Shown here piece by piece: positions 235 through 35,192 of a DNA stretch of 64,000 nucleotides. Every line of letters starts with the position of its first letter. The stretch's first letter is position 1. The DNA is from an uncultured Candidatus Saccharibacteria bacterium (GTDB taxonomy: Bacteria > Patescibacteriota > UBA1384 > XYA2-FULL-43-10 > 1-14-0-10-43-13): assembly GCA_964406145.1 (NCBI GenBank), contig CAYOQP010000001.1, positions 7,706 through 71,705 of the forward strand. Reading direction: 5' to 3'. A model generated the notes under the pieces. That model did no database searches. It had not been told where the DNA came from and worked only from the letters and a program-made list of their open reading frames with translations. Position numbers and translations under genes: made by a program.

Positions 235-1350
235 TTAATTTAAAGCTTCAATTCCTGGTAATTTCATGCCCGCCAAGAAATCTAGGGCCGCCCCACCACC
301 GGTGGAGAGAAAAGTAATTTTCTTATCCAATCCTTCTTCTTTGACAAATCCGACAGTATCACCACCAGCAATGACCGTGACTGCATCAGCTTCATTCATC
401 GCTTTGGCAACCGTGCTCATACCGCCCTGATAGCGAGGATCTTCACTATAGCCAAGACTACCGTTCCAAAAGATTGTTTTTGCTCCCCTTATTGCGATAG
501 CAAAGTTTGTTCTAGTCTGAGCGCCAATATCTAATATTTTAAATCCACCACTTTGTCCTAGCTCTTTGACACTATCAACAGGCAAAACAATTTTATCACT
601 AAATTTTTCAAGTATTTCTTTGCATTTATCTACCATCTCGGTGTCATAGACCGAGCCACCGACATCCTCGCCCTTAGCCTTAACAAAAGTATTGGCAACA
701 CCGCCACCAAGAAGAATTTTATCAGCCATAGGGGCAAGCTTATCGATCACGCCCGCCTTGTCCTTGACCTTGACGCCACCGATGACTAAGACAAATGGTT
801 TCTCGGGATTTTCTGTGATTTTGCTTAAGTTTTCGACCTCAGCTTGCATTAATAGTCCAGCATAGCTTGGAATAAATTTGGTAATTGCTTCGACCGAGGC
901 ATTGGCTCGGTGCGACACGGCGAAAGCATCATTGACATAGACACCAAGATCACCAGAAGAAGAGGTTGTCATATTGGCAAGCTCTTCGCCAAATTGAGAA
1001 TCGTTCTCTTCTTCGCGGGGGTCGAAACGCAGATTCTCAAGCATCATGATGCTTTCACTCAAGACATATTCCTTTTGCGGACTATCAAAATCATGACGAA
1101 TGTTCAATTGTTCTCCAAGACGATTTGCTACTGGCCAAAGACTATAGAGTAGATCTGTTTGTCCTTCTGGACGTCCCAGATGAGTCCCGATGATGATTCT
1201 GCCGCCCTTGTCTAGAATATATTTTATCGTTGGCAATACTGCCTTAATGCGGTTATCATCGGTAATCTCTCCGTCCGTCATTGGCACATTAAAATCAACG
1301 CGCAAAAACACGCGTTTTCCTTTTAGATCGGCTTCTTGTACTTTCCTCAT
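235..1350 (-). CDS. pgk: Phosphoglycerate kinase
   Basis: 371 aa. N-terminal RVDFNVP...IKA.LPTI and the full PGK architecture are present. A GGAGGG SD sits upstream. Confidence 0.95.
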   Translation of the reverse strand: MRKVQEADLKGKRVFLRVDFNVPMTDGEITDDNRIKAVLPTIKYILDKGGRIIIGTHLGRPEGQTDLLYSLWPVANRLGEQLNIRHDFDSPQKEYVLSESIMMLENLRFDPREEENDSQFGEELANMTTSSSGDLGVYVNDAFAVSHRANASVEAITKFIPSYAGLLMQAEVENLSKITENPEKPFVLVIGGVKVKDKAGVIDKLAPMADKILLGGGVANTFVKAKGEDVGGSVYDTEMVDKCKEILEKFSDKIVLPVDSVKELGQSGGFKILDIGAQTRTNFAIAIRGAKTIFWNGSLGYSEDPRYQGGMSTVAKAMNEADAVTVIAGGDTVGFVKEEGLDKKITFLSTGGGAALDFLAGMKLPGIEALN

Positions 1351-1802: not shown

Positions 1803-2744
1803 TTGAACGCACGCATCAATGAACATCAGCTCAATCTAATTATTTCTTATATTCTGAATGAATTTGAAACTTTTGGTGTGCAAAAAAATGACGAGAAGAT
1901 TATGTTCGAATCGCTCAAGAAATCATCAGATTTTGTTATCTGGGCCGATAAACCAATCATCTCTTTTAAGAAAATCCTCTGGCCTAATGGACAGGAGATG
2001 GGTAAAAGAAATAACAGAAAAATTGCTTTTCTTGGCCTTGCTAACTGCGACGCAGAAGCACTCTCCAAATTTTTTCTAGAGTTTAATAAAACTGATTTAC
2101 TAATTGAAAGAAAAAATATTCTGGTCGTCACAACCAAGTGTAAGCCAGATGAGAATTGTTTCTGTCAAGCTTTTGGTAAAGTCAAATTTCAATATTCCGA
2201 TATTCACATCCAAAAAAATGGCCGCGATTTTGAGATCTTTGGGTTAACTCCAACTGGGAAAAGAATATTGGAGAATACCGGCGTCAAGAAAACATTGGGT
2301 CTCGAAATTGAAGAATTGCTCCCTCAGAATATCGAACAGATTGACAAAAATGAGTTATCAAACGAAATAGATAATAAGGAAAAATGGTCCGAATATTGGC
2401 AAGAAATTTCTGATAATTGTTTTGGCTGTGGCGCCTGCACCGCGGTTTGCCCGCTTTGTTTTTGCTTCCGACAAAATTCCAAGAATACCACGGATGGCAA
2501 ATGCAAAAATTGTCTAGAGTGGGACTCGTGTTTTTCGACAAGTTTTTCACAGATCCAACACCACTTTGATTTTCGACCAACCAACAAAGACCGCCTCTAC
2601 AATTGGTACCATCACAAATTCGATCGAGCATATTTTCAGAATAAACATTTCTTATGTACTGGTTGTGGTCGCTGCATCAAGGCCTGTCCGGCGCACCTTA
2701 ATCAATATCGAATAATTTCTCATTTGGTGAAAAAAAATGATTAA
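1803..2744 (+). CDS. hydB: Group 3b [NiFe] hydrogenase (sulfhydrogenase-type) beta subunit, Fe-S protein
   Basis: 313 aa. Two 4Fe-4S ferredoxin motifs, CFGCGACTAVCP and CTGCGRCIKACP, plus extra Cys clusters. First gene of a beta-gamma-delta-alpha operon. TTG start after GGAGGG. Confidence 0.65.
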   Translation: MNARINEHQLNLIISYILNEFETFGVQKNDEKIMFESLKKSSDFVIWADKPIISFKKILWPNGQEMGKRNNRKIAFLGLANCDAEALSKFFLEFNKTDLLIERKNILVVTTKCKPDENCFCQAFGKVKFQYSDIHIQKNGRDFEIFGLTPTGKRILENTGVKKTLGLEIEELLPQNIEQIDKNELSNEIDNKEKWSEYWQEISDNCFGCGACTAVCPLCFCFRQNSKNTTDGKCKNCLEWDSCFSTSFSQIQHHFDFRPTNKDRLYNWYHHKFDRAYFQNKHFLCTGCGRCIKACPAHLNQYRIISHLVKKND

Positions 2745-3543
2745 GAAAATAAATAATTTTGAATACCAAGAATATGAAATATTAGACAAAGAGGAGATTG
2801 CTCCGGAAACATTTTTGTTTAAATTAAAAGACAATATTCCTTTTAAGCCTGGGCAATTTGTCCAAGTCGCGATAGATCATTTTGGCGAAGCAACCTTTGC
2901 TATCTGTTCAAGTCCACATGAGAAAGAATATTTTGAGCTCTGTATTAGAAATTCCGGCAACACCTCCGGTCACCTAACGACTCTTCTGCCCGGAGACAAA
3001 ATGAAGATACGGGGACCATATGGCAATGGTTGGCCGATTGAGAAATTATTCGGAAAAGAAATTGTATTGATTGCTGGCGGTTTAGGATTGGTTCCCCTGC
3101 GTCCATTAATTTTTGCCCTTGAGAAAAGAAAGGTGAAGCTTGGGACAATAAAAATATTTGCCGGATTCAAGAGCCCCGAACAGGTCGTCTTCAAACAAGA
3201 TTTGCGTAATTGGATCAAGAAGTACCATGCTGATGTTGTCGTCGAGTACACTGAGAAGAATTTCTGGGGCGAGAAAGGCATGATCACCGAGGCACTAGAA
3301 AAAAGAAAATTAAATCCGAGCAGATCGATCGTCTTGATATGCGGACCAGAAATAATGTGTCCATATTGTAACGCCGTGTTATTCAAAAAAGGCATTGGGA
3401 AAGATCAGATTTACATCTCTTTAGAGCGAAGAATGGAATGTGGTATTGGTATCTGCCAGCATTGCAACTGCGGCAAACATTTAGTCTGTCAAGATGGTCC
3501 GATTTTTAGACTAGACAAAATCGAAAAAGAAATAGGCAAATAA
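2737..3543 (+). CDS. hydG: Hydrogenase gamma subunit, PyrK/AsrB-like FAD/NAD(P)-binding oxidoreductase with a C-terminal [2Fe-2S]
   Basis: 268 aa. Flavin reductase-like N-domain and a C-terminal CGIGICQHCNCGKHLVC cluster motif. Overlaps hydB by 8 nt. Confidence 0.75.
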   Translation: MIKKINNFEYQEYEILDKEEIAPETFLFKLKDNIPFKPGQFVQVAIDHFGEATFAICSSPHEKEYFELCIRNSGNTSGHLTTLLPGDKMKIRGPYGNGWPIEKLFGKEIVLIAGGLGLVPLRPLIFALEKRKVKLGTIKIFAGFKSPEQVVFKQDLRNWIKKYHADVVVEYTEKNFWGEKGMITEALEKRKLNPSRSIVLICGPEIMCPYCNAVLFKKGIGKDQIYISLERRMECGIGICQHCNCGKHLVCQDGPIFRLDKIEKEIGK

Positions 3544-4287
3544 ATGCAAAACAAAGAAACAATTAATGATTTTATACCCAAGAAAAAATTAGCTATTTTT
3601 TCCTTGACCTCTTGTGAAGGTTGTCAGTTCGAAATGCTAAGCTGTTATGAGGATTTTGAAAAAATCTTAAAATTTTATGACGTTGTAAATTTTCGTCTAG
3701 GTCAGGAAATAAATTTACCCGGACCATTTGATGTTTCAATAGTCGAAGGCAACCCCGATGGTGAAAAACAGGAAAAATTATTAAAAGAAATCCGCAAACA
3801 CACTAAATTAGTCATTGCTATAGGCGCTTGTGCTCACCTTGGCGGCATCCAATCAGAACGAAATCATCAACCCAAAAAACTTATAGATAAAGAAAAAACC
3901 AAAACAGTCGCCGACGTTATCAGGGTAGAATATATCATTCCTGGTTGCCCGATCAACAGATTTGAGCTTTATGATTGCTTAATGGACGTTTATTGGGGCA
4001 AAATTTTTCGTCTACCAGACCTAGCTGTTTGCTTCGAATGTCGTCAAAATGAAAATCCCTGCCTTTTGAAACAGAAAAAACTTTGTCTGGGACCAATTAC
4101 TCGAGCTGGATGCGATTCTGTCTGTGTCAACAGTGGTGAGGCCTGTCTGGGCTGTCGCGGCACGATTCCAAATCCGAACATCAAGAAGCTAAAACAAATT
4201 TTAGGAGCAAATTTTTCAGAAAAAGAGATTGATAATTTTATGACCATATACGGTACAAGTAAAGATTTAGAGGCAAATTTACAATGA
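3544..4287 (+). CDS. hydD: [NiFe] hydrogenase small (delta) subunit
   Basis: 247 aa. N-terminal LTSCEGCQFE proximal-cluster cysteines, then GACAHLGGI and GCPI motifs typical of NuoB-like or group 3 small subunits. Starts 1 nt after the hydG stop. Confidence 0.8.
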   Translation: MQNKETINDFIPKKKLAIFSLTSCEGCQFEMLSCYEDFEKILKFYDVVNFRLGQEINLPGPFDVSIVEGNPDGEKQEKLLKEIRKHTKLVIAIGACAHLGGIQSERNHQPKKLIDKEKTKTVADVIRVEYIIPGCPINRFELYDCLMDVYWGKIFRLPDLAVCFECRQNENPCLLKQKKLCLGPITRAGCDSVCVNSGEACLGCRGTIPNPNIKKLKQILGANFSEKEIDNFMTIYGTSKDLEANLQ

Positions 4288-5531
4288 ACGAAGCAGTCCC
4301 AAAAATTGAAGGCCACGCCGCTTTTTACTCTCATTTGAAGAATGGCCATGTTGATAAAGCCCAGCTAATTGGTTTAGAGAATGATCGTTTTGTCGAGAAA
4401 ATACTGTTTGGACGAAAATATTTTGAAGCCCCGATCATTACTTCACGTATCTGCGGAATATGTCCGACAATTCACAACATCACTTCAATAAAGGCGATCG
4501 AGGCGGCTTGCGGAATTGTGCCATCGTCTCAGACCAAGAAACTTCGAGAGCTAATGCTTTGTGGCCAGATGATACAAAGTCATTCTCTCCATCTCTACCT
4601 TTTAGTCGCGCCAGATTTTGTTGGAGCAAGCTCTTCATTTGAATTACAAAAAACTCATCCGGAATTATTCAAAAATGCCATCGAGCTAAAAAAATATGCT
4701 GACAAAATCATTGAAACAATCGGCGGACGAGCAGTCCATCCTATTGCCAGTGTCCCAGGCGGATTCAAGTCCTATCCAGAGAAAAAAGAACTGGAATTCT
4801 TAGCTGAATCAGCTAAACAGGTAGAAGAAATTGCCGCCAGAACTCTACGCCTTTTTGCTAGCTTTGGCTATCCGACAATAGAGCGAGAGATTATTTATAG
4901 CTCACTTCATTCAGATGGGGAATATGCTTTTTATGATGGAGATATTTGGACCTCGGCTGGCGACCTATTTAAGGCCGAGGAATATAACAGTTATATTTAC
5001 GAAGAGATTAAACCATACACTCATGCAAAGTTTGGGACTCTTAAGGGCAAGGAGATCATGGTTGGGGCAATGGCTAGATATAATCAAAACCACAGTCACT
5101 TCAATAGAAAAACCAAAGAAATTATTTCTGAATTAGGAATTGTTAACAAATTCGATAATCCATTCAATAATATTTTGGCCCAAGCAATCGAGAACTACTA
5201 TTTCGTTACTTTGTCTGCTGAAATTATTTCTAATTTATTGAAAAATGGCATTAAAAAAGAACATATTTTACCACCGAGAAGGTTCGGCATTGGGACTGGT
5301 GTCTGCGAAGCACCTCGTGGAACCTTGTTTCATCACTACGAGCTAGACGAGGAAGGCTTTATTACAAAATGTGATATTATCACACCAACGGTGCAAAGTT
5401 TGCCAGCCTTAGAACACGACATGAAGAAAATGGGGCCATTGCTCAAAGAGGCCGATACCGAAGAAAGAAACAGACTAATCGAAATGTTAATACGTGCTTA
5501 TGATCCTTGTATCACCTGCGCCACACACTAG
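4284..5531 (+). CDS. hydA: [NiFe] hydrogenase large (alpha) subunit, group 3b-like
   Basis: 415 aa. N-terminal Ni-binding L1 motif RICGICPTIH and C-terminal L5 motif DPCITCATH, after which the ORF stops. Overlaps hydD by 4 nt. Confidence 0.9.
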   Translation: MNEAVPKIEGHAAFYSHLKNGHVDKAQLIGLENDRFVEKILFGRKYFEAPIITSRICGICPTIHNITSIKAIEAACGIVPSSQTKKLRELMLCGQMIQSHSLHLYLLVAPDFVGASSSFELQKTHPELFKNAIELKKYADKIIETIGGRAVHPIASVPGGFKSYPEKKELEFLAESAKQVEEIAARTLRLFASFGYPTIEREIIYSSLHSDGEYAFYDGDIWTSAGDLFKAEEYNSYIYEEIKPYTHAKFGTLKGKEIMVGAMARYNQNHSHFNRKTKEIISELGIVNKFDNPFNNILAQAIENYYFVTLSAEIISNLLKNGIKKEHILPPRRFGIGTGVCEAPRGTLFHHYELDEEGFITKCDIITPTVQSLPALEHDMKKMGPLLKEADTEERNRLIEMLIRAYDPCITCATH

Positions 5532-5570
5532 GCTCTTTCAAATAATGTAAATCAGTAATAAAATATTTTT

Positions 5571-6455
5571 ATGAATGTTATCGAAATAACAAAATTAACA
5601 AAATATTATCTTGGCAAGAAAGTCTTGGGTATAAAGGATCTTAACCTTGAAGTTAAAGAAGGCGAAATTTTCGGTTTCATTGGTCCAAATGGTGCGGGCA
5701 AATCTACCACCATTAGACTTCTTCTAGATTTTATCCGGCCGACATCTGGAAATGCTAAAATATTTGGCCAGGATATTAATATCAAGTCAGTAGAAATTAA
5801 AAAACAGATCGGCTATTTGCCTGGAGAGATCTTCCTGGAAGACAATATAACAGGCAAAGAATGCCTAGATTACTACAAGGGCTTCAAAGAAAATGTTGAC
5901 GAAAAGTATCTCGATAGTTTAATAAAGCGTATGGGCCTAAGCCTGTCCAAGAAAGTCAGAGATTATTCGAAAGGAAATAAACAAAAACTGGCGATAATCT
6001 TGGCATTGATGCACAAACCGAAATTATTAATTCTTGACGAACCAACTAGCGGCCTTGATCCATTAAATCAACATGAATTTTTTGAAATTTTGAAAGAAAC
6101 AAAAAAAGAAGGCGTGACTACATTTCTGTCGACCCACATCCTTGATGAGGCTAATCGAATTTGTGATCGCGTCGGCATTATCAAATCAGGTAAGTTAATC
6201 GCTATTGAGGACATCGATGAATTTAGGACGAAGAATATTCGCGATATACATATCAAAACCTCCGAAACTATTCCCTCTTCAGTATTGAATACAGCCGGTA
6301 TTACTAAATCAGAGAAAACTGAAACGGGATATCACCTATCAATCGTCGGCCCAGATGCTCAAATCTTAAAAGAGATACTCAAATATTCAGTCGAAGATAT
6401 CGACATCGAAAAACCAACGCTAGAAGAGATATTTATTAGGTTTTACAAAGATTAA
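5571..6455 (+). CDS. ABC transporter ATP-binding protein (ABC-2 subfamily)
   Basis: Walker A GPNGAGKST, signature YSKGNKQKLAI, Walker B LLILDEPTSGLD. Confidence 0.85.
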   Translation: MNVIEITKLTKYYLGKKVLGIKDLNLEVKEGEIFGFIGPNGAGKSTTIRLLLDFIRPTSGNAKIFGQDINIKSVEIKKQIGYLPGEIFLEDNITGKECLDYYKGFKENVDEKYLDSLIKRMGLSLSKKVRDYSKGNKQKLAIILALMHKPKLLILDEPTSGLDPLNQHEFFEILKETKKEGVTTFLSTHILDEANRICDRVGIIKSGKLIAIEDIDEFRTKNIRDIHIKTSETIPSSVLNTAGITKSEKTETGYHLSIVGPDAQILKEILKYSVEDIDIEKPTLEEIFIRFYKD

Positions 6456-6456
6456 T

Positions 6457-7251
6457 ATGATCAACATCATAAAATACAATTTAAGAAAACAGTTTAAAAG
6501 CATCGCCATATACTTAGTCGCGCTGGTTGGATTTGCATTAATGTATATATCGCTATTTCCCTCTATGAAAAAGATCGACATCGAAGCGATGATGGCACAG
6601 ATGCCCAAAGAATTCTTAGGTTTTTTGGGGGAAGGTGGCGCTGCTAGCTACGGCAAGATTGAAGGATATCTCTCTGGTGAATTTTTTTCATTCTTCTTCA
6701 TACTCTTGGTTGGCTTTTATGTTTCCTCAGTAGCAGGATCAGCTATTGCCGGTAAAATTGAAAAAAGGGTAATGGATTTTGACCTCTCGCAACCAATTTC
6801 AAGATCAAAAAGGCTAATTTCTGAGACACTAGTTGCAATGTTTTATTCATTTATAATTGTCGGAGTTGTCTGTCTTTCGACTAAGTTATTGTGTCTAGCA
6901 TTTGATATATCGATATCAAGCAAAGGATTGTTATTTATGACAATTATTGGCACACTCTTCGCCTGGGCTCTATATGGGATAGCAATATTCATTTCAAGCA
7001 TCACGAGGTCCAAAATTGCAGTCTCTGGTATAACCGTATTCATCACGCTTGCCTCTTATATTTTCTACGCTTTATCACTTGCCGTTGAGAAAATAAAGGA
7101 TTATGGCAAATACAGTCTGTACAACTACTACGATCCACAAAAAATCCTCTCGAAATCAGAAATAAGCCCCGAACAATGTCTCGTCTTCCTTGCTATTTTT
7201 GCTGTAGGCACAGCAATGGCAATGATTATTTTTAACAAAAAAGATACATAA
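6457..7251 (+). CDS. ABC-2 type transporter permease
   Basis: 264 aa polytopic membrane protein, about 6 hydrophobic helices. Starts 2 nt after the ATPase stop. Confidence 0.6.
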   Translation: MINIIKYNLRKQFKSIAIYLVALVGFALMYISLFPSMKKIDIEAMMAQMPKEFLGFLGEGGAASYGKIEGYLSGEFFSFFFILLVGFYVSSVAGSAIAGKIEKRVMDFDLSQPISRSKRLISETLVAMFYSFIIVGVVCLSTKLLCLAFDISISSKGLLFMTIIGTLFAWALYGIAIFISSITRSKIAVSGITVFITLASYIFYALSLAVEKIKDYGKYSLYNYYDPQKILSKSEISPEQCLVFLAIFAVGTAMAMIIFNKKDT

Positions 7252-7284
7252 AAAAAAATAACCTCGAGAGAGGTCATTTTTTTA
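7252..7284. terminator. Bidirectional rho-independent terminator between the convergent ABC permease and hypC
   Basis: A-run, then hairpin ACCTC-GAGA-GAGGT (7261-7274), then TTTTTTT. Confidence 0.5.
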
Positions 7285-7303: not shown

Positions 7304-7537
7304 TCAATCGTGTCGTTCACAAGCCATCTCTTCATGAGTCTTGATAAACTCTAGGTTTTCTTCGGCTTCTTTTTCCGAAATTTTAGACAGCGCTCGGCCA
7401 TCATGCATCAATATCCAATCTCCTTTCTTTACCTCGGGAGCCAAGGAAATGTCTGCGATATATTCTTTACCATCATATTTAAAATAAGCTTTTTGTTCTT
7501 CAATTTTAATAATTTTTCCGGGAATTGCCAAACACAT
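7304..7537 (-). CDS. hypC: [NiFe] hydrogenase maturation chaperone HypC/HupF
   Basis: 77 aa beginning MCLAIPGKI, the invariant HypC N-terminus. Its ATG directly abuts the gap stop codon (TAA-ATG junction at 7535-7540). Confidence 0.85.
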   Translation of the reverse strand: MCLAIPGKIIKIEEQKAYFKYDGKEYIADISLAPEVKKGDWILMHDGRALSKISEKEAEENLEFIKTHEEMACERHD

Positions 7538-8527
7538 TTATTTTTTGCCAATCAATTGTGCAAGATCAACTAATCTTTCGGAATAGCCCCACTCGTTGTC
7601 ATACCAAGCGATAACTTTGATCAAATTTCCGCCAACAACTTGAGTTAACGAAAGATCAACAATCGTAGAATTTTTATTGCCAAGCAAATCGCTAGAGACA
7701 ATCTGCTCATCAGTTGTGGCAAGTATTCCCATCATCTCTTCGTCTTCAGCGCCAACAAAAGCTTTATTAATCTCATCGACCGTAACTTCTTTCTTCAATA
7801 CTGCTGTAATATCAGCCAAAGAGACAACTGGAGTTGGAACTCTAACGGCTAAGCCATCAAATCGATCTTTCAAAGCAGGGATGGTTTTGAAAGCCGCCTT
7901 GGCCGCACCAGTAGAAGTCGGGACAATATTTAAAGCCGCCGCCCGAGCTCGACGCAAATCCTTGTGGGGACCATCAACCAAATTTTGGTCAGCAGTATAA
8001 GAATGAATTGTCGTCATTAAAGATTTCTCAATGCCAAATTTTTCTTCTATGACTTTCATGACGGGAGTTATGCAATTTGTCGTACAAGATGCGTTAGAAA
8101 CAATATCCTCACCAGCATATTTATCAGCATTGACACCGATTACATACATCGGCGTATCGTCCTTGGGTGGCGCTGACATGACAACTTTTTTTGCCCCTGC
8201 TTTGATATGAGATTTAGCATCTTCTTGCGTTAAGAAATGTCCAGTACATTCAAGTACAACATCAATACCAAGCTCTCGCCAAGGCAACTTGGCCGGCTCC
8301 TTCTCCGCATATGCATGAATTCTTTTTTTATCAATAATTATATCGTTCTCGTCGAAACCAACCTCGTGAGACCAGATCCCATAGGCAGTATCGTATTTCA
8401 AAAGATGGGCCAAGGTCTCTGTTTCTGTCAGATCATTAATGGCTACAAGCTCAAGATCTTTACGCTCATAAATAATTTTTGCGGCCGCGCGACCAATACG
8501 TCCAAAGCCATTGATAGCAATTTTCAT
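7538..8527 (-). CDS. gap: Glyceraldehyde-3-phosphate dehydrogenase (type I)
   Basis: 329 aa. NGFGRIGR NAD-binding motif and the SNASCTTNC active site. Confidence 0.95.
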   Translation of the reverse strand: MKIAINGFGRIGRAAAKIIYERKDLELVAINDLTETETLAHLLKYDTAYGIWSHEVGFDENDIIIDKKRIHAYAEKEPAKLPWRELGIDVVLECTGHFLTQEDAKSHIKAGAKKVVMSAPPKDDTPMYVIGVNADKYAGEDIVSNASCTTNCITPVMKVIEEKFGIEKSLMTTIHSYTADQNLVDGPHKDLRRARAAALNIVPTSTGAAKAAFKTIPALKDRFDGLAVRVPTPVVSLADITAVLKKEVTVDEINKAFVGAEDEEMMGILATTDEQIVSSDLLGNKNSTIVDLSLTQVVGGNLIKVIAWYDNEWGYSERLVDLAQLIGKK

Positions 8528-8536
8528 TTTTTCCTC

Positions 8537-9289
8537 TTAAGGTCTTAAACTTTTTGTTTCTGCCCAAATTTTACAAATTTTGATAAATTCAGCACTTCTA
8601 ACGCTGGCGCTTCCGACTAAGACACCGTCGATCTCCGGACGTCCTGCGTATTCCTTGATGTTAGCCGAACTAACGCTACCTCCATACAATATTGGGGTTT
8701 CGGAATGGACCAGCTCTCTTAATCTTACAATGGCTTTAGCCACGTATAACGGATCGGCATTCTCATGTTTAGTCGTTGAAGTTATGGCCCAGATAGGCTC
8801 ATAAGCCACAACAATATTGCGATAATATTTCTTAGGTACTCCTCGTAGAGCTTCTTCGAGCTCTTTGACTGGCTGATTGAAATTAGTACTTTTGGTCTTC
8901 TCGCCGACACAAATAATTGGCACAAGCCCTGCTTTTAGAGCCGCCAAAACTTTTTCATTAACCTCAATATTGGTCTCACCAAAGTGCTCTCTGCGCTCTG
9001 AATGGCCAACAATAACATAATCTGAAACTTCTTTGACCATCAAGGGCGAAATTTCACCTGTGTAGGCTCCATCTGGCTCATAGAACATATCTTGAGCGCC
9101 CAAAACAGTCTTCCCACCACGTTTCAAAATGTCAGCGATTTCCGTTAACCACAAAATTGGAGGACAAATTATCACCTCAATGTCTTTGAGATCGGCAACA
9201 TTGTTTCTGACAGCAGTTGCGATAACATGAGCGTCAGCAACGCTTGTTACATACATTTTCCAGTTAGCAACGATAATAGAGCGTTTCAT
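8537..9289 (-). CDS. tpiA: Triosephosphate isomerase
   Basis: 250 aa. ANWKM, GHSERR and AYEPIWAI motifs. Confidence 0.95.
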   Translation of the reverse strand: MKRSIIVANWKMYVTSVADAHVIATAVRNNVADLKDIEVIICPPILWLTEIADILKRGGKTVLGAQDMFYEPDGAYTGEISPLMVKEVSDYVIVGHSERREHFGETNIEVNEKVLAALKAGLVPIICVGEKTKSTNFNQPVKELEEALRGVPKKYYRNIVVAYEPIWAITSTTKHENADPLYVAKAIVRLRELVHSETPILYGGSVSSANIKEYAGRPEIDGVLVGSASVRSAEFIKICKIWAETKSLRP

Positions 9290-10595: not shown

Positions 10596-10649
10596 ATTTA
10601 CTATTATACAGTATCGGGGAACAGAGACATGATCTTTGTTCCCCGAAGG

Positions 10650-11204
10650 TTAGCGCCGGATTTTGGAATAGCGTTTCCTCTCGGCAAAGCGAGACTCGCC
10701 GATTCCGGTATCCGAGCGCAAGAAGTCGCCCATGACTCCAACGGATACCCCGAACATCTCACGCAGAACGTAGTAACTCGTGACCATGCCCTCGCCACGT
10801 CTCAGCTGCTCCATTTCGACAAGCACATAGTCGCGTAGCCTTTCGAGCTGATCCATGGGATACTTTTCCCAGCCTCTGGCGCGGAGCGGACCAGAGCGAG
10901 AAGTACCTTTGGGTTTAGCAGGCCCAGGCCGCGATGTCGGTTTCATCGGTTTGCCGGATCGAACTGCTGGCACATCATGCGGAAGGCCAGTGAGGCGCCT
11001 CCATTCCGGTTTCTCCGATTCTCTCAGTCGGGCCTCTAGTAGTCGAGCGACAAAAGCCGCATCCATGGCAAACTGTCTTGCCAGATCTTCGCATCCCGGT
11101 ATATACCGTCCAACTTTGATGCGTCGACGTACGAACTGCATCAAAGAATGACAAGCCTTGTCAGGATACTGCGAAAAGTCGGCGGATGTGTCTGTAGTAG
11201 TCAT
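10650..11204 (-). CDS. Hypothetical protein on GC-rich island 1, with a possible HTH segment
   Basis: 184 aa ORF, GC about 60% against an AT-rich backbone. Own SD GAGGAGG 11 nt upstream of the ATG. Upstream TTGAAA / ATAGTG promoter-like elements. Putative HTH CEDLARQFAMDAAFVARLL. No recognisable family. Confidence 0.4.
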   Translation of the reverse strand: MTTTDTSADFSQYPDKACHSLMQFVRRRIKVGRYIPGCEDLARQFAMDAAFVARLLEARLRESEKPEWRRLTGLPHDVPAVRSGKPMKPTSRPGPAKPKGTSRSGPLRARGWEKYPMDQLERLRDYVLVEMEQLRRGEGMVTSYYVLREMFGVSVGVMGDFLRSDTGIGESRFAERKRYSKIRR

Positions 11205-11272
11205 TCTTCGACATTCCTCCTCAAGATTTGTATTTGCACTATACCATGTTTTCTATTTTTTTCAAGGAGTTG

Positions 11273-11301
11273 TTGACTCTAATTAGTCTTTCTGGTAGTA
11301 T
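11273..11301 (+). promoter_or_regulatory. Sigma70-like promoter for the plus-strand island 1 gene
   Basis: TTGACT (11273-78), 17-nt spacer, TAGTAT (11296-301), in an AT-rich divergent intergenic region. Confidence 0.4.
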
Positions 11302-11357
11302 ACTTTCATGTTTTTGACACGCAAAAAAAAGCAAGACATCATTAAGTCATTCGGCTA

Positions 11358-11429
11358 CGGGCCAGCTTTTTAGTGCAGTACAAAAACGTGCGCTTGAAGG
11401 AACTGGCCTCCGGGCCAGATTTTTTTTTG
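11358..11429 (+). promoter_or_regulatory. Leader attenuator-like element with an intrinsic terminator hairpin, T-run, and a possible upstream anti-terminator copy
   Basis: CTGGCC-TCCG-GGCCAG hairpin (11404-11419) followed by TTTTTTTTT. The upstream segment CGGGCCAGC (11358-66) can pair alternatively with CTGGCC. It lies between the promoter and the SD of the 11499 ORF. Confidence 0.4.
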
Positions 11430-11498
11430 TTTATCCAGGGGAAAATTCCTACATCATTCCCTGTAATAGACAAAATACCTTGAGGAGGTACACACGTC

Positions 11499-11891
11499 AT
11501 GGTCACTGCTCTTTCGAGCCGCAACACCTTGGCGGGCAAAAAACCCGTCAGCATGACACCAGAAGAGTTGATCAGCCTGGTGGCGGAAGCACCGCTCCAG
11601 TGGTCAAGCTCGCACATCGCCGCTGCCACTATCCTCGGCTGTATGCTCGCGGAAGAAGGTGGCTTTGCCGACACGATCAAGCAGACGCCGCAAGCTCTCG
11701 CGAACATCGCCCGCTGTCGGCGCCTTCACCCCGGAGTTCGCGACACCGCCCTCCTGATCCTCACCCAGCACGAAGGAGAAGGGGCCACGGCCCCTGACAA
11801 CCGCTTTGCGCGGGGATTCGAGCGCCGCCAGAAGCTTCGGACCAAGAAGCCCAAGGCCTGCGGCGGGCCAGTTCCCTGCTTCATCCAGTAG
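11499..11891 (+). CDS. Hypothetical protein on GC-rich island 1
   Basis: 130 aa ORF, GC about 62%. Strong SD GAGGAGG 9-10 nt upstream of the ATG. Basic C-terminus. No recognisable family. Confidence 0.4.
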   Translation: MVTALSSRNTLAGKKPVSMTPEELISLVAEAPLQWSSSHIAAATILGCMLAEEGGFADTIKQTPQALANIARCRRLHPGVRDTALLILTQHEGEGATAPDNRFARGFERRQKLRTKKPKACGGPVPCFIQ

Positions 11892-11918
11892 TGCGCTTAA
11901 AGCGCCACAAGTTCAGAA

Positions 11919-33683: not shown

Positions 33684-35171
33684 GTGTTAAACACCCCCGC
33701 CGTTAATCTCGGCATCGTTGGCGTCAGCCGGGATTGCTTCCCGATCGAACTGACCCGGACCCGTCTCGGCCAGTTGGCCGAAGCCTGTGGCGACCATGCC
33801 ACCCCGTTCACCACGATCATCGAGAGCGAACGCGATGTCGCATCTGTCCTCAAAGAGGCGCATGATCTCGGCACCAACGCGATCGCGATCTATCTCGGCA
33901 ACTTCGGCCCCGAAGGCCCACTGTCCCTCCTCGCCGAAAAGTTCGGTGGCCCCGTCATGATCTGTGGCGCCGCCGAAGAGAGCATGCACACCCTGATCCA
34001 GGGTCGTGGCGATGCCTTCTGTGGCATGTTGAACGCGCACTACAATCTCGGACTGCGCCGGAAGCGCGTCCACACCCCGCAGAATCCCGTGGGCCTGCCT
34101 CACGAACTGGCGATTGAGATCGCCCACTTCATCAAGGTCGCCCGCGTCGCCCTCGGCATGAAAAGCCTCAAGGTCTTCGGATTCGGCCCGCGGCCCCAGG
34201 ACTTCCTGGCCTGCAACGCGCCGATTCAGCCGATCTACAACCTCGGCATCGAGATCATGGAGAACAGCGAGCTCGACCTCCTGAGGCTCTACAAAGCCGT
34301 CGATGAGAACGATCCTGAAATCGCAGTGATCGCCGAAGACATGGCTGCCGAACTGGGCCAGGGTAACACCTACCCCGACCTGTTGGCCAAGCTGGCCCGT
34401 TACGAACTGGCACTGTCCCGCTTCTTCGACGCCAACCTCGGCATGAGCAACTATGCCGTGATGGCCGACAAGTGCTGGCCGGCCTTCGAGGCCGAATTCG
34501 GCTTCGTCCCCTGCTACGTCAACAGCCGCTTCGCCAAGCGCGGCATTCCCATCGCTTGCGAAGTGGACGTCTACGGCGCGATCAGCGAGTATATGTGCCA
34601 GCTCGCGAGCCTCGCACCAGCGACCCTGCTGGACATCAACAACACCGCCCCGACCGATTTGTTGGCCAAGCTCGGCCGCAACTTCGATCCGGGCAACTTC
34701 TGGATGGGTTTCCATTGCGGCAATACCCCGTCCTGCCAGATGAAGAGCTGCGCTATGGCCTACCAGCTCATCATGAATCGTCTGATGGAAGGTGGCAACA
34801 CGCCCGACATCACCCGCGGTACCCTGGAAGGCCAGCTTCGCCCCGGCGCGGCAACGATCTTCCGCCTGCAAGGGACATCGGACAACTATCTGGCCAGCTA
34901 CATGGCGGAGGGCGAGATCGTCGATCTCGATCCCATGAGCTTCGGCGGCATCGGAGTCTTTGAGATTCCCGACTTCGCCCGCTTCTACCGCCACGTCCTT
35001 TTGAGTCTGCGTTTTCCGCATCACACCGCCGTGGCCTTCGACCACTGCGGCGAGGTGCTCTATGACGCGACGAAGATGCTCGGCCTCGCCAACATCTTCA
35101 CGCCGAACCCGGCGTCGATCCCCTACGAGCGCGAGAACCCGTTCTCCCTCGCCCGGATCAGCGGCAAGTAA
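33684..35171 (+). CDS. L-fucose/L-arabinose isomerase-family (COG2407-like) sugar isomerase, on GC-rich island 3
   Basis: 495 aa, about 62% GC, GTG start. N-terminal VNLGIVGVSRDCFP...AIYLGNFGPE pattern of FucI-like proteins. Central acidic metal-site candidates CEVDVYGA. Antisense frame fully open, a GC artefact. Confidence 0.5.
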   Translation: MLNTPAVNLGIVGVSRDCFPIELTRTRLGQLAEACGDHATPFTTIIESERDVASVLKEAHDLGTNAIAIYLGNFGPEGPLSLLAEKFGGPVMICGAAEESMHTLIQGRGDAFCGMLNAHYNLGLRRKRVHTPQNPVGLPHELAIEIAHFIKVARVALGMKSLKVFGFGPRPQDFLACNAPIQPIYNLGIEIMENSELDLLRLYKAVDENDPEIAVIAEDMAAELGQGNTYPDLLAKLARYELALSRFFDANLGMSNYAVMADKCWPAFEAEFGFVPCYVNSRFAKRGIPIACEVDVYGAISEYMCQLASLAPATLLDINNTAPTDLLAKLGRNFDPGNFWMGFHCGNTPSCQMKSCAMAYQLIMNRLMEGGNTPDITRGTLEGQLRPGAATIFRLQGTSDNYLASYMAEGEIVDLDPMSFGGIGVFEIPDFARFYRHVLLSLRFPHHTAVAFDHCGEVLYDATKMLGLANIFTPNPASIPYERENPFSLARISGK

Positions 35172-35192
35172 ACAACTTCGCCGACACAACAA

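What the first reader, a model, noticed from the sequence alone, without database searches (positions are those of the whole stretch)
1803..5531. Complete four-subunit group 3b-type [NiFe] hydrogenase operon; the large subunit ends exactly at the DPCxxCxxH motif
The beta (2x 4Fe-4S), gamma (FAD/NAD(P) plus 2Fe-2S), delta (small subunit) and alpha (large subunit, RICGICPTIH ... DPCITCATH) genes are arranged as in sulfhydrogenases. The large subunit terminates 0 residues after the final His of the Ni-Fe binding motif. It therefore lacks the C-terminal extension that is normally cleaved by a HycI/HybD-type endopeptidase during maturation. This implies protease-independent maturation. The enzyme likely serves as the NAD(P)H-reoxidising electron sink for the adjacent fermentative glycolysis genes.
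Basis: partly seen in the sequence, partly recalled or inferred. Interest (0 to 1): 0.5.

Follow-up and report, generated by a model that had tools for sequence, protein, structure and literature searches.

The report
CPR group 3b hydrogenase without cleavable tail
This is a normal-looking four-subunit cytoplasmic nickel-iron hydrogenase operon of an ultra-small (CPR/Patescibacteria) bacterium, of a kind already described, whose catalytic subunit naturally lacks the short tail that a dedicated protease cuts off in the textbook enzyme; that trait turns out to be shared by a large clade.

Summary
Four translationally coupled genes (1803-5531, + strand) encode the beta, gamma, delta and alpha subunits of a sulfhydrogenase-type (group 3b) [NiFe]-hydrogenase. 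Each subunit's best solved-structure match is the corresponding subunit of Pyrococcus furiosus SH-I. The alpha subunit ends DPCITCATH-TAG.

The stop codon is not a sequencing error. The identical protein occurs on independent assemblies, and 117 of 117 full-length close homologues (59-94% identity, Patescibacteria/Berkelbacteria) end at the same His. So do 12 more clade members from JGI metagenomes.

The trait is broad. About one third of 3b-like representatives lack the extension. In a neighbour-joining tree, 46 of the 63 extension-less sequences form one clade holding the window, other CPR lineages, Archaeoglobi and Korarchaeota.

Across GTDB loci, a HycI/HybD-type protease gene lies within 1.5 kb of 40/54 extension-bearing genes and 0/15 extension-less genes (p=1.4e-7). 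This supports protease-independent maturation.

hypC is the only maturation gene in the 64 kb. It sits directly behind gap-tpiA. HypABDEF in the rest of the genome could not be checked.

The operon belongs to the published CPR "hyd1" clade, so it is a new member of a known kind. The missing tail within group 3b is a modest, apparently unremarked point.

The parts
235..1350 (-). pgk (phosphoglycerate kinase), transcribed divergently from the hydrogenase operon
   Evidence: Pfam PGK on the identical gene in L001. The arrangement PfkB-FBA-PGK <-|-> hydBGDA is conserved in L003, L005-L008.
1803..2744 (+). hydB-like beta subunit (AsrA/HydB family Fe-S protein). Two CxxCxxCxxxCP motifs at residues 206-217 and 285-296, plus extra conserved Cys.
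   Evidence: Fer4_22, 3e-22; ShyB/AsrA/HydB best; PDB 9nez_B SH-I beta, 5e-17; Cys positions, GGAGG before the TTG start.
2737..3543 (+). hydG-like gamma subunit: FAD- and NAD(P)-binding diaphorase with a C-terminal [2Fe-2S] motif CGIGICQHC (residues 235-243)
   Evidence: AsrB, HydG and ShyC among the top NCBIfam hits; 9nez_C SH-I gamma, 7e-48.
3544..4287 (+). hydD-like delta (small) subunit. 14 Cys, including the N-terminal CxxC, GCP, and a C-terminal 8-Cys block matching SH-I delta.
   Evidence: Oxidored_q6; ShyD 1.6e-45; 9e1j_A SH-I delta 1e-32, Cys-rich C-terminal region aligned.
4284..5531 (+). hydA-like alpha (large, catalytic) subunit, 415 aa, ending at the last His of the Ni-Fe motif
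   Evidence: All 25 invariant columns of a 36-sequence alignment are present, including C57, C60, C409, C412, R345 and H415.
4446..4475 (+). L1 motif RICGICPTIH (two Ni-Fe cysteine ligands)
   Evidence: Sequence read directly.
5502..5531 (+). L2 motif DPCITCATH followed immediately by the TAG stop: no C-terminal extension
5571..7251 (+). ABC ATPase (5571-6455) and ABC-2 permease (6457-7251). They start 39 bp after the large subunit with no terminator between, so they are possibly co-transcribed. Function unknown.
   Evidence: ABC_tran, ABC2_membrane_2; no terminator at 5531-5571. Syntenic in L003, L005-L008.
7252..7283 (.). Bidirectional terminator-like hairpin between the ABC permease and the convergent hypC
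   Evidence: 14-pair stem on the - strand, 5-pair stem on the + strand, T runs on both.
7304..7537 (-). hypC (Fe(CN)2CO-delivering chaperone, N-terminal MC... and conserved His). Its ATG directly follows the gap stop codon.
   Evidence: HupF_HypC 4e-20; 70-100% identity across the clade.
7538..9289 (-). gap (7538-8527) and tpiA (8537-9289), upstream of hypC on the same strand
   Evidence: Gp_dh_N/C, TIM. The same tpiA-gap-hypC order is found in L005-L008, and in L003 with inserted genes.

Best explanation
The region encodes a functional cytoplasmic heterotetrameric [NiFe]-hydrogenase of the sulfhydrogenase type (group 3b). It belongs to the CPR-specific 'hyd1' clade, in a Berkelbacteria-like Patescibacteria genome.

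**Electron path (inferred by homology to P. furiosus SH-I).** Electrons pass between NAD(P)(H) at the FAD/[2Fe-2S] gamma subunit, the Fe-S clusters of beta and delta, and the Ni-Fe site of alpha.

**Maturation.** The large subunit is made in its final length. It ends at the His that becomes the C-terminus only after proteolysis in the archetype. Maturation therefore skips the endopeptidase step. HypC (encoded 1.8 kb away, behind gap-tpiA) delivers Fe(CN)2CO, nickel is inserted, and the protein closes without cleavage. [quoted passage not shown]

**Evolution.** Loss of the extension and loss of the adjacent protease gene went together. The loss is ancient and is shared by a large clade of 3b-like enzymes.

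**Physiology.** Given the conserved embedding among glycolysis genes and the fermentative lifestyle of CPR bacteria, the most likely role is to balance NAD(P)H made by glycolysis against H2. That means H2 evolution at low H2 partial pressure, and reversibility otherwise.

**Shown versus inferred.** Shown: gene content, homology, motif integrity, clade-wide absence of the extension, and the protease/extension correlation. Inferred: activity, cofactor content, nucleotide specificity, direction of catalysis, and absence of a protease elsewhere in the genome.
For: **Four-subunit homology to SH-I.**

**Catalytic residues intact.** All invariant residues, including the four Cys ligands, are present.

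**The stop is real.**

**Breadth of the trait.** 43 of 133 motif-bearing representatives at 50% clustering are extension-less, including Thermoleophilia, Archaeoglobi and Korarchaeota. A neighbour-joining tree puts 46 of the 63 extension-less sequences in one clade with the window.

**Protease correlation.** A protease gene lies within 1.5 kb in 0/15 extension-less loci and 40/54 extension-bearing loci, Fisher p=1.4e-7. CPR contrasts fit this pattern:
- Falkowbacteria L068 keeps the extension and the order LS-protease-hypA-hypC.
- Komeilibacteria L015 has no extension and the order LS-hypA-hypC.
- Saccharibacteria L074 is extension-less, with hypC, hypD and hypE directly downstream.

**No protease near the gene.** No protease-like ORF is found in the window or the clade flanks, even at E<=10 with filters off.

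**HypC is present and conserved.**

**Synteny with glycolysis genes is conserved.** pfkB-fba-pgk and tpiA-gap-hypC.

**Literature.**
- CPR hyd1 group 3b clade with a hypC-like gene nearby: PMC7304191.
- Berkelbacteria 3b operon: PMC10811913.
- The archetype requires FrxA cleavage of -VVRL: PMC2865534.
- Natural extension-less classes use the Hyp machinery: PMC7294309, PMC7654741.
Against: - Only 64 kb of the genome (plus about 9.5 kb beyond its ends, from other assemblies) was visible. A protease encoded far away cannot be excluded. In P. furiosus, frxA is unlinked to SH-I, and 14/54 extension-bearing loci also lack an adjacent protease.
- HypA, B, D, E and F were not found near the operon in any of 11 distinct members of the window's own clade. 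A CPR HypD profile search also did not return a HypD on any of the long contigs carrying clade hydrogenases. Canonical cofactor assembly in this clade is therefore assumed, not shown.
- NAD(P)H-driven H2 evolution is thermodynamically unfavourable except at low H2. P. furiosus SH-I is usually regarded as working in the uptake direction.
- All NCBIfam hits are below the equivalog cut-offs, so this is not an orthologue of SH-I or SH-II in the strict sense.
- The tree is neighbour-joining, without support values.
Confidence: 0.8

Rival explanations
1. The enzyme is an electron-bifurcating (or confurcating) hydrogenase. It would couple NAD(P)H and a second carrier such as ferredoxin to H2, rather than acting as a simple NAD(P)-linked enzyme. 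This was proposed for the Berkelbacteria/Moranbacteria 3b complex from an AlphaFold multimer model.
For: PMC10811913 proposes two electron paths and an extra partner site. Beta carries more conserved cysteines than two ferredoxin motifs need. Confurcation would solve the thermodynamic problem of making H2 from NAD(P)H.
Against: All four subunits are homologous, one to one, to P. furiosus SH-I, which is characterised as an NADP(H)-linked enzyme. There is no extra subunit, no ferredoxin gene and no second flavin domain in the operon. The proposal rests on a model only.
Confidence: 0.12
2. The physiological function is sulfur/polysulfide reduction (a true sulfhydrogenase), or H2 uptake to make NAD(P)H, and not disposal of glycolytic reductant.
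For: Beta and gamma are AsrA/AsrB homologues. P. furiosus SH-I reduces S0 in vitro. Valentin-Alvarado 2024 links CPR 3b enzymes to sulfur cycling.
Against: The tight, conserved linkage is to glycolysis genes, with hypC fused to the gap-tpiA transcription unit. No sulfur-metabolism genes are in the window. This differs from the best explanation only in the direction or acceptor of catalysis, which sequence cannot decide.
Confidence: 0.2
3. The missing extension is an artefact (sequencing or assembly error, or stop-codon read-through), and a normal cleavable tail exists.
For: An 8-codon open stretch (ALSNNVNQ) follows the TAG in frame.
Against: The sequence is identical in independent assemblies. 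117/117 close homologues plus 12 JGI clade members stop at the His. TAA, TAG and TGA are all used at this position, and the downstream frames are unconserved and unlike real extensions.
Confidence: 0.01
4. The complex is a relic or non-catalytic hydrogenase-like protein, because the lineage lacks the Hyp machinery apart from HypC.
For: Only hypC was found in the window and in all clade flanks. No clade HypD was recovered.
Against: All metal ligands and catalytic residues are retained. All four subunits and HypC are conserved (59-94% and 70-100% identity) across many genomes. Other CPR with extension-less enzymes carry hypA, hypC, hypD, hypE and a hypF-like gene next to the operon. The CPR proteins that truly lost function (Ehr-like) lost their cysteines.
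Confidence: 0.05

Closest known systems
CPR 'hyd1' group 3b [NiFe]-hydrogenases (Jaffe et al. 2020, PMC7304191); Berkelbacteria/Moranbacteria 3b operon (Valentin-Alvarado et al. 2024, PMC10811913)
   Same: Large and small subunits are co-located with AsrA-like beta and AsrB-like gamma subunits, with a hypC-like gene in the neighbourhood. The closest named homologues (65-69% identity) are labelled Berkelbacteria or Patescibacteria.
   Different: Nothing substantive: this is a member. Neither paper's main text contains the word 'maturation' (0 occurrences), so they appear not to address the missing C-terminal extension or the maturation route.
Pyrococcus furiosus sulfhydrogenase I/II (SH-I, PDB 9nez/9e15) and Thermococcus kodakarensis Hyh (PDB 5yxy): the group 3b archetypes
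   Same: The same four subunits, the same L1/L2 motifs, and full-length alignment of alpha (E 1e-68). Beta, gamma and delta each match their SH-I counterpart best.
   Different: The alpha chains of SH-I and Tk Hyh run 4 residues past the final His (His424 of 428). For SH-I this tail is -VVRL, and FrxA must remove it for activity. The window's alpha ends at the His. All NCBIfam scores are far below the equivalog cut-offs. Beta is about 50 residues shorter. The host is a mesophilic bacterium with low GC, not a hyperthermophilic archaeon.
Naturally extension-less [NiFe]-hydrogenases: H2 sensors (groups 2b/2d, e.g. R. eutropha HoxC), CODH-linked CooH (4c), Ech (4e), and 4g
   Same: The large subunit terminates at the final His of the motif, and no processing protease is needed. 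Where studied, the cofactor is still inserted by the Hyp proteins.
   Different: These belong to different hydrogenase groups with different partners and roles. Group 3b is not named in those lists.
Anaerobic sulfite reductase AsrA/AsrB
   Same: Beta and gamma are homologues of AsrA and AsrB (1e-21 and 2e-57).
   Different: There is no AsrC siroheme subunit. Beta and gamma are coupled here to a hydrogenase dimer.

Membership tests
Group 3b [NiFe]-hydrogenase (sulfhydrogenase type) | Large subunit with L1 (RxCGxCxxxH) and L2 (DPCxxCxxH) motifs and four Cys ligands | tested here: met
   RICGICPTIH at residues 55-64 and DPCITCATH at 407-415. All invariant columns of a 36-sequence 3b alignment are present.
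Group 3b [NiFe]-hydrogenase (sulfhydrogenase type) | Large subunit closer to 3b references than to 3a, 3c or 3d | tested here: met
   PDB phmmer: SH-I alpha 235 bits and Tk Hyh 226; MvhA (3c) 211; SH HoxH (3d) 155; Frh (3a) 102-153. The best NCBIfam families are ShyA and HydA. The margin over 3c is modest.
Group 3b [NiFe]-hydrogenase (sulfhydrogenase type) | Heterotetramer: AsrA-like beta and AsrB-like FAD/NAD(P) gamma encoded with the small and large subunits | tested here: met
   Gene order is beta-gamma-delta-alpha with coupled junctions. Each subunit's best PDB hit is the matching SH-I chain.
Group 3b [NiFe]-hydrogenase (sulfhydrogenase type) | HydDB classifier or supported phylogeny assigns group 3b | not testable with these tools
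   HydDB is not available. Published trees place the CPR clade with 4-subunit context in 3b (PMC7304191).
Group 3b [NiFe]-hydrogenase (sulfhydrogenase type) | NAD(P)-linked H2 turnover (and S0 reduction in vitro) | not testable with these tools
   Requires enzyme assays.
Group 3b archetype maturation (SH-I/Hyh) | C-terminal extension removed by a HybD/FrxA-type endopeptidase | tested here: not met
   Zero residues follow the final His. No protease-like ORF is in the window or the clade flanks. This is a property of the archetype, not a criterion of the group.
CPR 'hyd1' clade (Jaffe 2020) | CPR origin, beta and gamma co-located, full-length small subunit (about 250 aa), hypC-like gene nearby | tested here: met
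   Top homologues are Patescibacteria/Berkelbacteria. Delta is 247 aa. hypC lies 1.8 kb away.
Naturally unprocessed [NiFe]-hydrogenases | Large subunit ends at the final His of L2 | tested here: met
Naturally unprocessed [NiFe]-hydrogenases | No cognate maturation endopeptidase in the genome | tested here: inconclusive
   None is found in the 64-kb window, in about 9.5 kb beyond its ends, or in the flanks of 10 other distinct clade members. Across GTDB loci the figures are 0/15 against 40/54.
Naturally unprocessed [NiFe]-hydrogenases | Cofactor still assembled by HypCDEF (and Ni inserted by HypA/B) | tested here: inconclusive
   HypC is present and highly conserved. HypA, B, D, E and F were not seen near any member of the window's clade. 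Other CPR extension-less loci have hypA, hypC, hypD, hypE and a hypF-like gene adjacent.

The most novel reading that the evidence does not exclude
The Berkelbacteria-like clade to which this window belongs may encode only HypC of the whole [NiFe] maturation apparatus: no HypA/B, no HypD/E/F and no endopeptidase. That would imply either an unknown route to the Fe(CN)2CO-Ni site or dependence on a host for cofactor assembly. The evidence does not exclude this. hypC is the sole maturation gene in the window and in the flanks of 10 other distinct clade members. No clade HypD surfaced on the long (0.4-1 Mb) contigs that carry the hydrogenase.
Probability: 0.08. Interest if true: 0.8.

Novelty: new member of a known kind. 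Interest (0 to 1): 0.3.

Why it matters
The operon itself adds nothing new to what is published on CPR hydrogen metabolism.

The useful by-product is comparative. A large, mostly monophyletic part of 'group 3b' is naturally extension-less and has lost the linked protease gene. It includes all the CPR types sampled except one Falkowbacteria locus, plus Archaeoglobi, Korarchaeota, Nitrospirota and some Actinomycetota. Reviews list only sensing, Ech-type and CODH-linked enzymes as unprocessed.

This gives a natural test set for what the C-terminal peptide and the protease checkpoint actually do. It also points to small bacterial 3b enzymes that might be expressed heterologously without a dedicated protease.

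The conserved placement of hypC behind gap-tpiA is a concrete hint that hydrogenase maturation is co-regulated with glycolysis in these fermenters.

Tried and rejected
- **Sequencing error or read-through at the TAG.** Rejected.
- **Other maturation genes in the window.** I searched all six frames of the window and clade loci with E. coli HypA-F and HycI seeds, with four fused protease domains, and with jackhmmer/HMM profiles built from 80 GTDB loci. Only HypC was found.
- **Locating HypD of the window's clade.** I built a CPR HypD profile from Saccharibacteria and Moranbacteria-type loci and searched the 5.8-billion protein set. Many CPR HypDs came back (Moranbacteria, Kuenenbacteria, Terrybacteria, Parcubacteria). 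None sits on a contig whose length matches the long clade contigs (971566, 867751, 798787, 603007, 413557, 100963 bp). Only the best 120 hits are listed, so this is inconclusive.
- **Walking off the window ends** with the look-up of encoding contigs gave only about 5.7 kb and 3.8 kb more, with no hyp genes.
- **Supplementary tables** of Jaffe 2020 and Valentin-Alvarado 2024 hold no hyp or protease entries.
- **Rfam and tRNA scans** of the window found nothing, so the GC-rich blocks are not structured RNA genes.
- **A paper on the SH-I cryo-EM structures** was not found in the library.
- **Structure prediction** was not run. Full-length sequence homology to solved SH-I chains made it unnecessary.

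Full report
**1. What is there**

Four ORFs on the + strand occupy 1803-5531:
- 1803-2744: 313 aa, TTG start preceded by GGAGG
- 2737-3543: 268 aa
- 3544-4287: 247 aa
- 4284-5531: 415 aa

The junctions overlap by 8 nt, abut, and overlap by 4 nt. This is a translationally coupled operon.

Pfam finds these domains:
- a 4Fe-4S dicluster domain (Fer4_22) in the first protein
- FAD_binding_6 + NAD_binding_1 + DHODB_Fe-S_bind in the second
- Oxidored_q6 in the third
- NiFeSe_Hases in the fourth

In NCBIfam, the best match for beta, delta and alpha is the Pyrococcus sulfhydrogenase subunit family. For gamma those families rank just behind a cytochrome-c3 hydrogenase gamma model and AsrB. Beta and gamma also match AsrA and AsrB. 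All scores are well below the equivalog cut-offs.

Against all PDB sequences, each subunit's best hit is the corresponding chain of P. furiosus sulfhydrogenase I:
- alpha 1.3e-68 over residues 6-415
- beta 5e-17
- gamma 7e-48
- delta 1e-32

For alpha, the next-best groups are 3c MvhA (211 bits, against 235 for SH-I), then 3d and 3a.

The large subunit carries RICGICPTIH (residues 55-64) and DPCITCATH (residues 407-415). It also has every invariant residue of a 36-sequence alignment of relatives. The small subunit has 14 cysteines, and its Cys-rich C-terminal region aligns to SH-I delta. Gamma has the CGIGICQHC [2Fe-2S] motif. Beta has two CxxCxxCxxxCP motifs plus further cysteines conserved with P. 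furiosus HydB, so '2x 4Fe-4S' is a lower bound.

**2. The C-terminus**

The codon after His415 is TAG, at 5529-5531. Five observations show this is not an error:
- The identical protein is found on four independently assembled contigs from two sequencing runs.
- Of the 120 closest database proteins (59-94% identity), all 117 that carry the motif end at the His.
- Twelve further full-length clade members from JGI metagenomes do the same.
- Across 30 extension-less genes the stop is TAA 14 times, TAG 12 times and TGA 4 times.
- The in-frame sequence downstream is unconserved and unlike genuine extensions, which read [FLM]L-x-V-x-[FW]....

**3. How widespread the trait is**

I searched every protein against 1.84 billion cluster representatives. 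Among the 133 of the 150 best hits that carry the motif, 43 have no extension. The rest have mostly 4-10 residues. Four have the maturation protease fused to the C-terminus.

Named members of extension-less clusters include Thermoleophilia, Archaeoglobi and Korarchaeota.

A neighbour-joining tree of 201 large subunits contains 63 extension-less sequences. Forty-six of them form a single clade. That clade holds the window, the other CPR types (Moranbacteria, Komeilibacteria, Saccharibacteria and an unclassified Patescibacteria genome), Archaeoglobi and Korarchaeota. The remainder form eight small clades, including Nitrospirota/Thermodesulfovibrionales and Actinomycetota. The minimum number of state changes is 9. 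The tree has no support values, so the number of independent losses is approximate.

**4. Does the protease go with the extension?**

A scan of one genome per GTDB species with a diverse 3b alignment returned 80 loci with up to 10-kb flanks. I searched them with jackhmmer, starting from E. coli HypA-F and HycI and from the four fused protease domains.

Among loci with at least 1 kb of sequence downstream, a HycI/HybD-type gene lies within 1.5 kb of the large subunit in 40 of 54 extension-bearing loci. It lies there in 0 of 15 extension-less loci (Fisher p=1.4e-7).

The gene orders are telling:
- Several extension-bearing loci read LS-protease-hypA-hypC. Examples are Falkowbacteria L068 and Omnitrophota L054 and L061.
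- Extension-less CPR loci read LS-hypA(-hypC). Examples are Komeilibacteria L015, Patescibacteria L019 and Moraniibacteriota L088 and L089.

The protease gene is missing from exactly the slot it otherwise fills. Fourteen extension-bearing loci also lack a linked protease, as does P. furiosus itself. Absence of linkage is therefore not proof of absence from the genome.

**5. Maturation genes in the window and its clade**

The only maturation gene in the 64 kb is hypC (7304-7537, - strand; Pfam 4e-20). Its ATG directly follows the stop codon of gap, so it probably rides on the tpiA-gap transcript. HypC is 70-100% identical across the clade. It is more conserved than the hydrogenase, which argues that it is in use.

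HMMs for the protease and for HypA, B, D, E and F find nothing in the window, even with filters off and E<=10. They also find nothing in the flanks of 10 other distinct clade members, or in the 5.7 kb and 3.8 kb beyond the window ends seen in other assemblies.

Other CPR lineages with extension-less enzymes do carry hypC, hypD and hypE adjacent to the hydrogenase operon, with a hypF-like ORF alongside; L042 and L087 also have hypA. Examples are Saccharibacteria L074 and the Moranbacteria-type loci L042 and L087. CPR HypD proteins are numerous. None of the 120 listed HypDs lies on a contig matching the long clade contigs. Whether this particular clade has hypD, hypE and hypF elsewhere remains open.

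**6. Context and likely role**

The neighbourhood is conserved in all four long clade contigs examined:
- pfkB, fba and pgk on the - strand, divergent from the operon
- hydB-G-D-A followed by an ABC ATPase and an ABC-2 permease on the + strand
- tpiA, gap and hypC on the - strand, converging on them

No terminator separates the large subunit from the ABC genes. A bidirectional hairpin sits between the permease and hypC.

By homology to SH-I, electrons should flow between NAD(P)(H) on gamma and the Ni-Fe site through the clusters of beta and delta. The linkage to glycolysis, and the fermentative metabolism attributed to CPR bacteria, make redox balancing of glycolytic NAD(P)H against H2 the most plausible role. 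Direction, nucleotide preference, sulfur reduction and the proposed bifurcation (PMC10811913) cannot be decided from sequence.

**7. Comparison with what is known**

The operon is a member of the CPR-specific 'hyd1' clade of group 3b described by Jaffe et al. 2020. That clade has four subunits, a full-length small subunit and a hypC-like gene nearby. It also matches the Berkelbacteria/Moranbacteria operon modelled by Valentin-Alvarado et al. 2024.

It differs from the archetype in one respect. The alpha chains of P. furiosus SH-I and T. kodakarensis Hyh run four residues past the His (His424 of 428). For SH-I the tail is -VVRL, and the enzyme is inactive unless FrxA removes it (Sun et al. 2010).

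Natural absence of the extension is well known for groups 2b, 2d, 4c, 4e and 4g (Hartmann et al. 2020; Finney et al. 2020). Group 3b is not on those lists. The word 'maturation' does not occur in the main text of either CPR paper, so they appear not to discuss the C-terminus.

Engineered removal of the extension left the R. eutropha SH without nickel, and E. coli Hyd-2 also without the CN and CO ligands, but did not abolish maturation of the R. eutropha MBH. Naturally tail-less enzymes must therefore fold around the site without the checkpoint.

**8. Verdict**

The caveats are that the rest of the genome was not searchable and that the physiological direction is inferred.

The thing itself is ordinary for a CPR genome and already in the literature. 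The clade-wide loss of the extension together with the linked protease gene is a modest new point. The only reading that would be surprising is that the lineage encodes HypC alone. That is not excluded, but it is unlikely.

Noticed in passing
window 33684-35171 (+): A 495-aa ORF with an L-fucose isomerase C-terminal domain (PF02952, 6e-20) sits in a block of about 54% GC inside a genome of 38-40% GC. The long antisense ORF 33687-35192 has no Pfam hit. It looks like a recent horizontal acquisition.
   Followed up: partly
window 10600-11900: A block of about 48% GC holds two orphan ORFs (10650-11204 on the - strand, 184 aa; 11499-11891 on the + strand, 130 aa) with no Pfam or Rfam hit. It lies between uvrC and proS. 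The same block is present in an independent assembly (L001 16367-17608), so it is not a mis-assembly.
   Followed up: partly
window 5571-7251 (+): An ABC ATPase (DrrA-like C-terminal domain) and an ABC-2 permease follow the hydrogenase large subunit by 39 bp with no terminator. The pair is syntenic with the hydrogenase in all long clade contigs. The substrate is unknown, and it is not a recognisable nickel transporter.
   Followed up: partly
window 7304-7540 (-): The hypC start codon directly abuts the gap stop codon (…AAATAA ATG). The order tpiA-gap-hypC is conserved in the clade. In L003, seven tandem ORFs of about 200 aa and unknown function are inserted between gap and hypC.
   Followed up: partly
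proteins P0217, P0239, P0255, P0266 (representative search): These are 3b-like large subunits of 598-626 aa. The normal extension (FLDLRL.../FLTLTIERR...) is followed by a fused HybD/HycI-like protease domain of about 170-195 aa (GxGNxxRxDDGxG motif). Substrate and protease are in one polypeptide.
   Followed up: partly
proteins P0123-P0126, P0194 (representative search): These are large-subunit relatives of about 395 aa at 35-46% identity, probably the CPR 'hyd2' type. Their L2 motif has degenerated (e.g. SYNICPTCALH, AYNFCPNCALL): the Asp-Pro is lost and the final His is sometimes lost. They too end at or within a residue of the motif.
   Followed up: no
L010 6810-7184 and L011 434-808: In another CPR-like extension-less 3b operon (GCA_037129835.1), a stand-alone response-regulator receiver gene overlaps the start of the beta subunit gene. 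This hints at regulated expression, or a signalling link, in that lineage.
   Followed up: no
window 1-64000: There is no tRNA gene and no Rfam family at gathering threshold anywhere in the 64 kb. Nearly all genes from 7.3 kb onwards are on the - strand, with steadily negative GC skew.
   Followed up: yes
L042 8808-9923, L087 7461-8822, L074 4012-4374: The HypF-like ORFs next to CPR hydrogenase operons are short (about 370-450 aa, against 750 aa in E. coli) and lie on the opposite strand to hypCDE. They may be truncated or split HypF.
   Followed up: no
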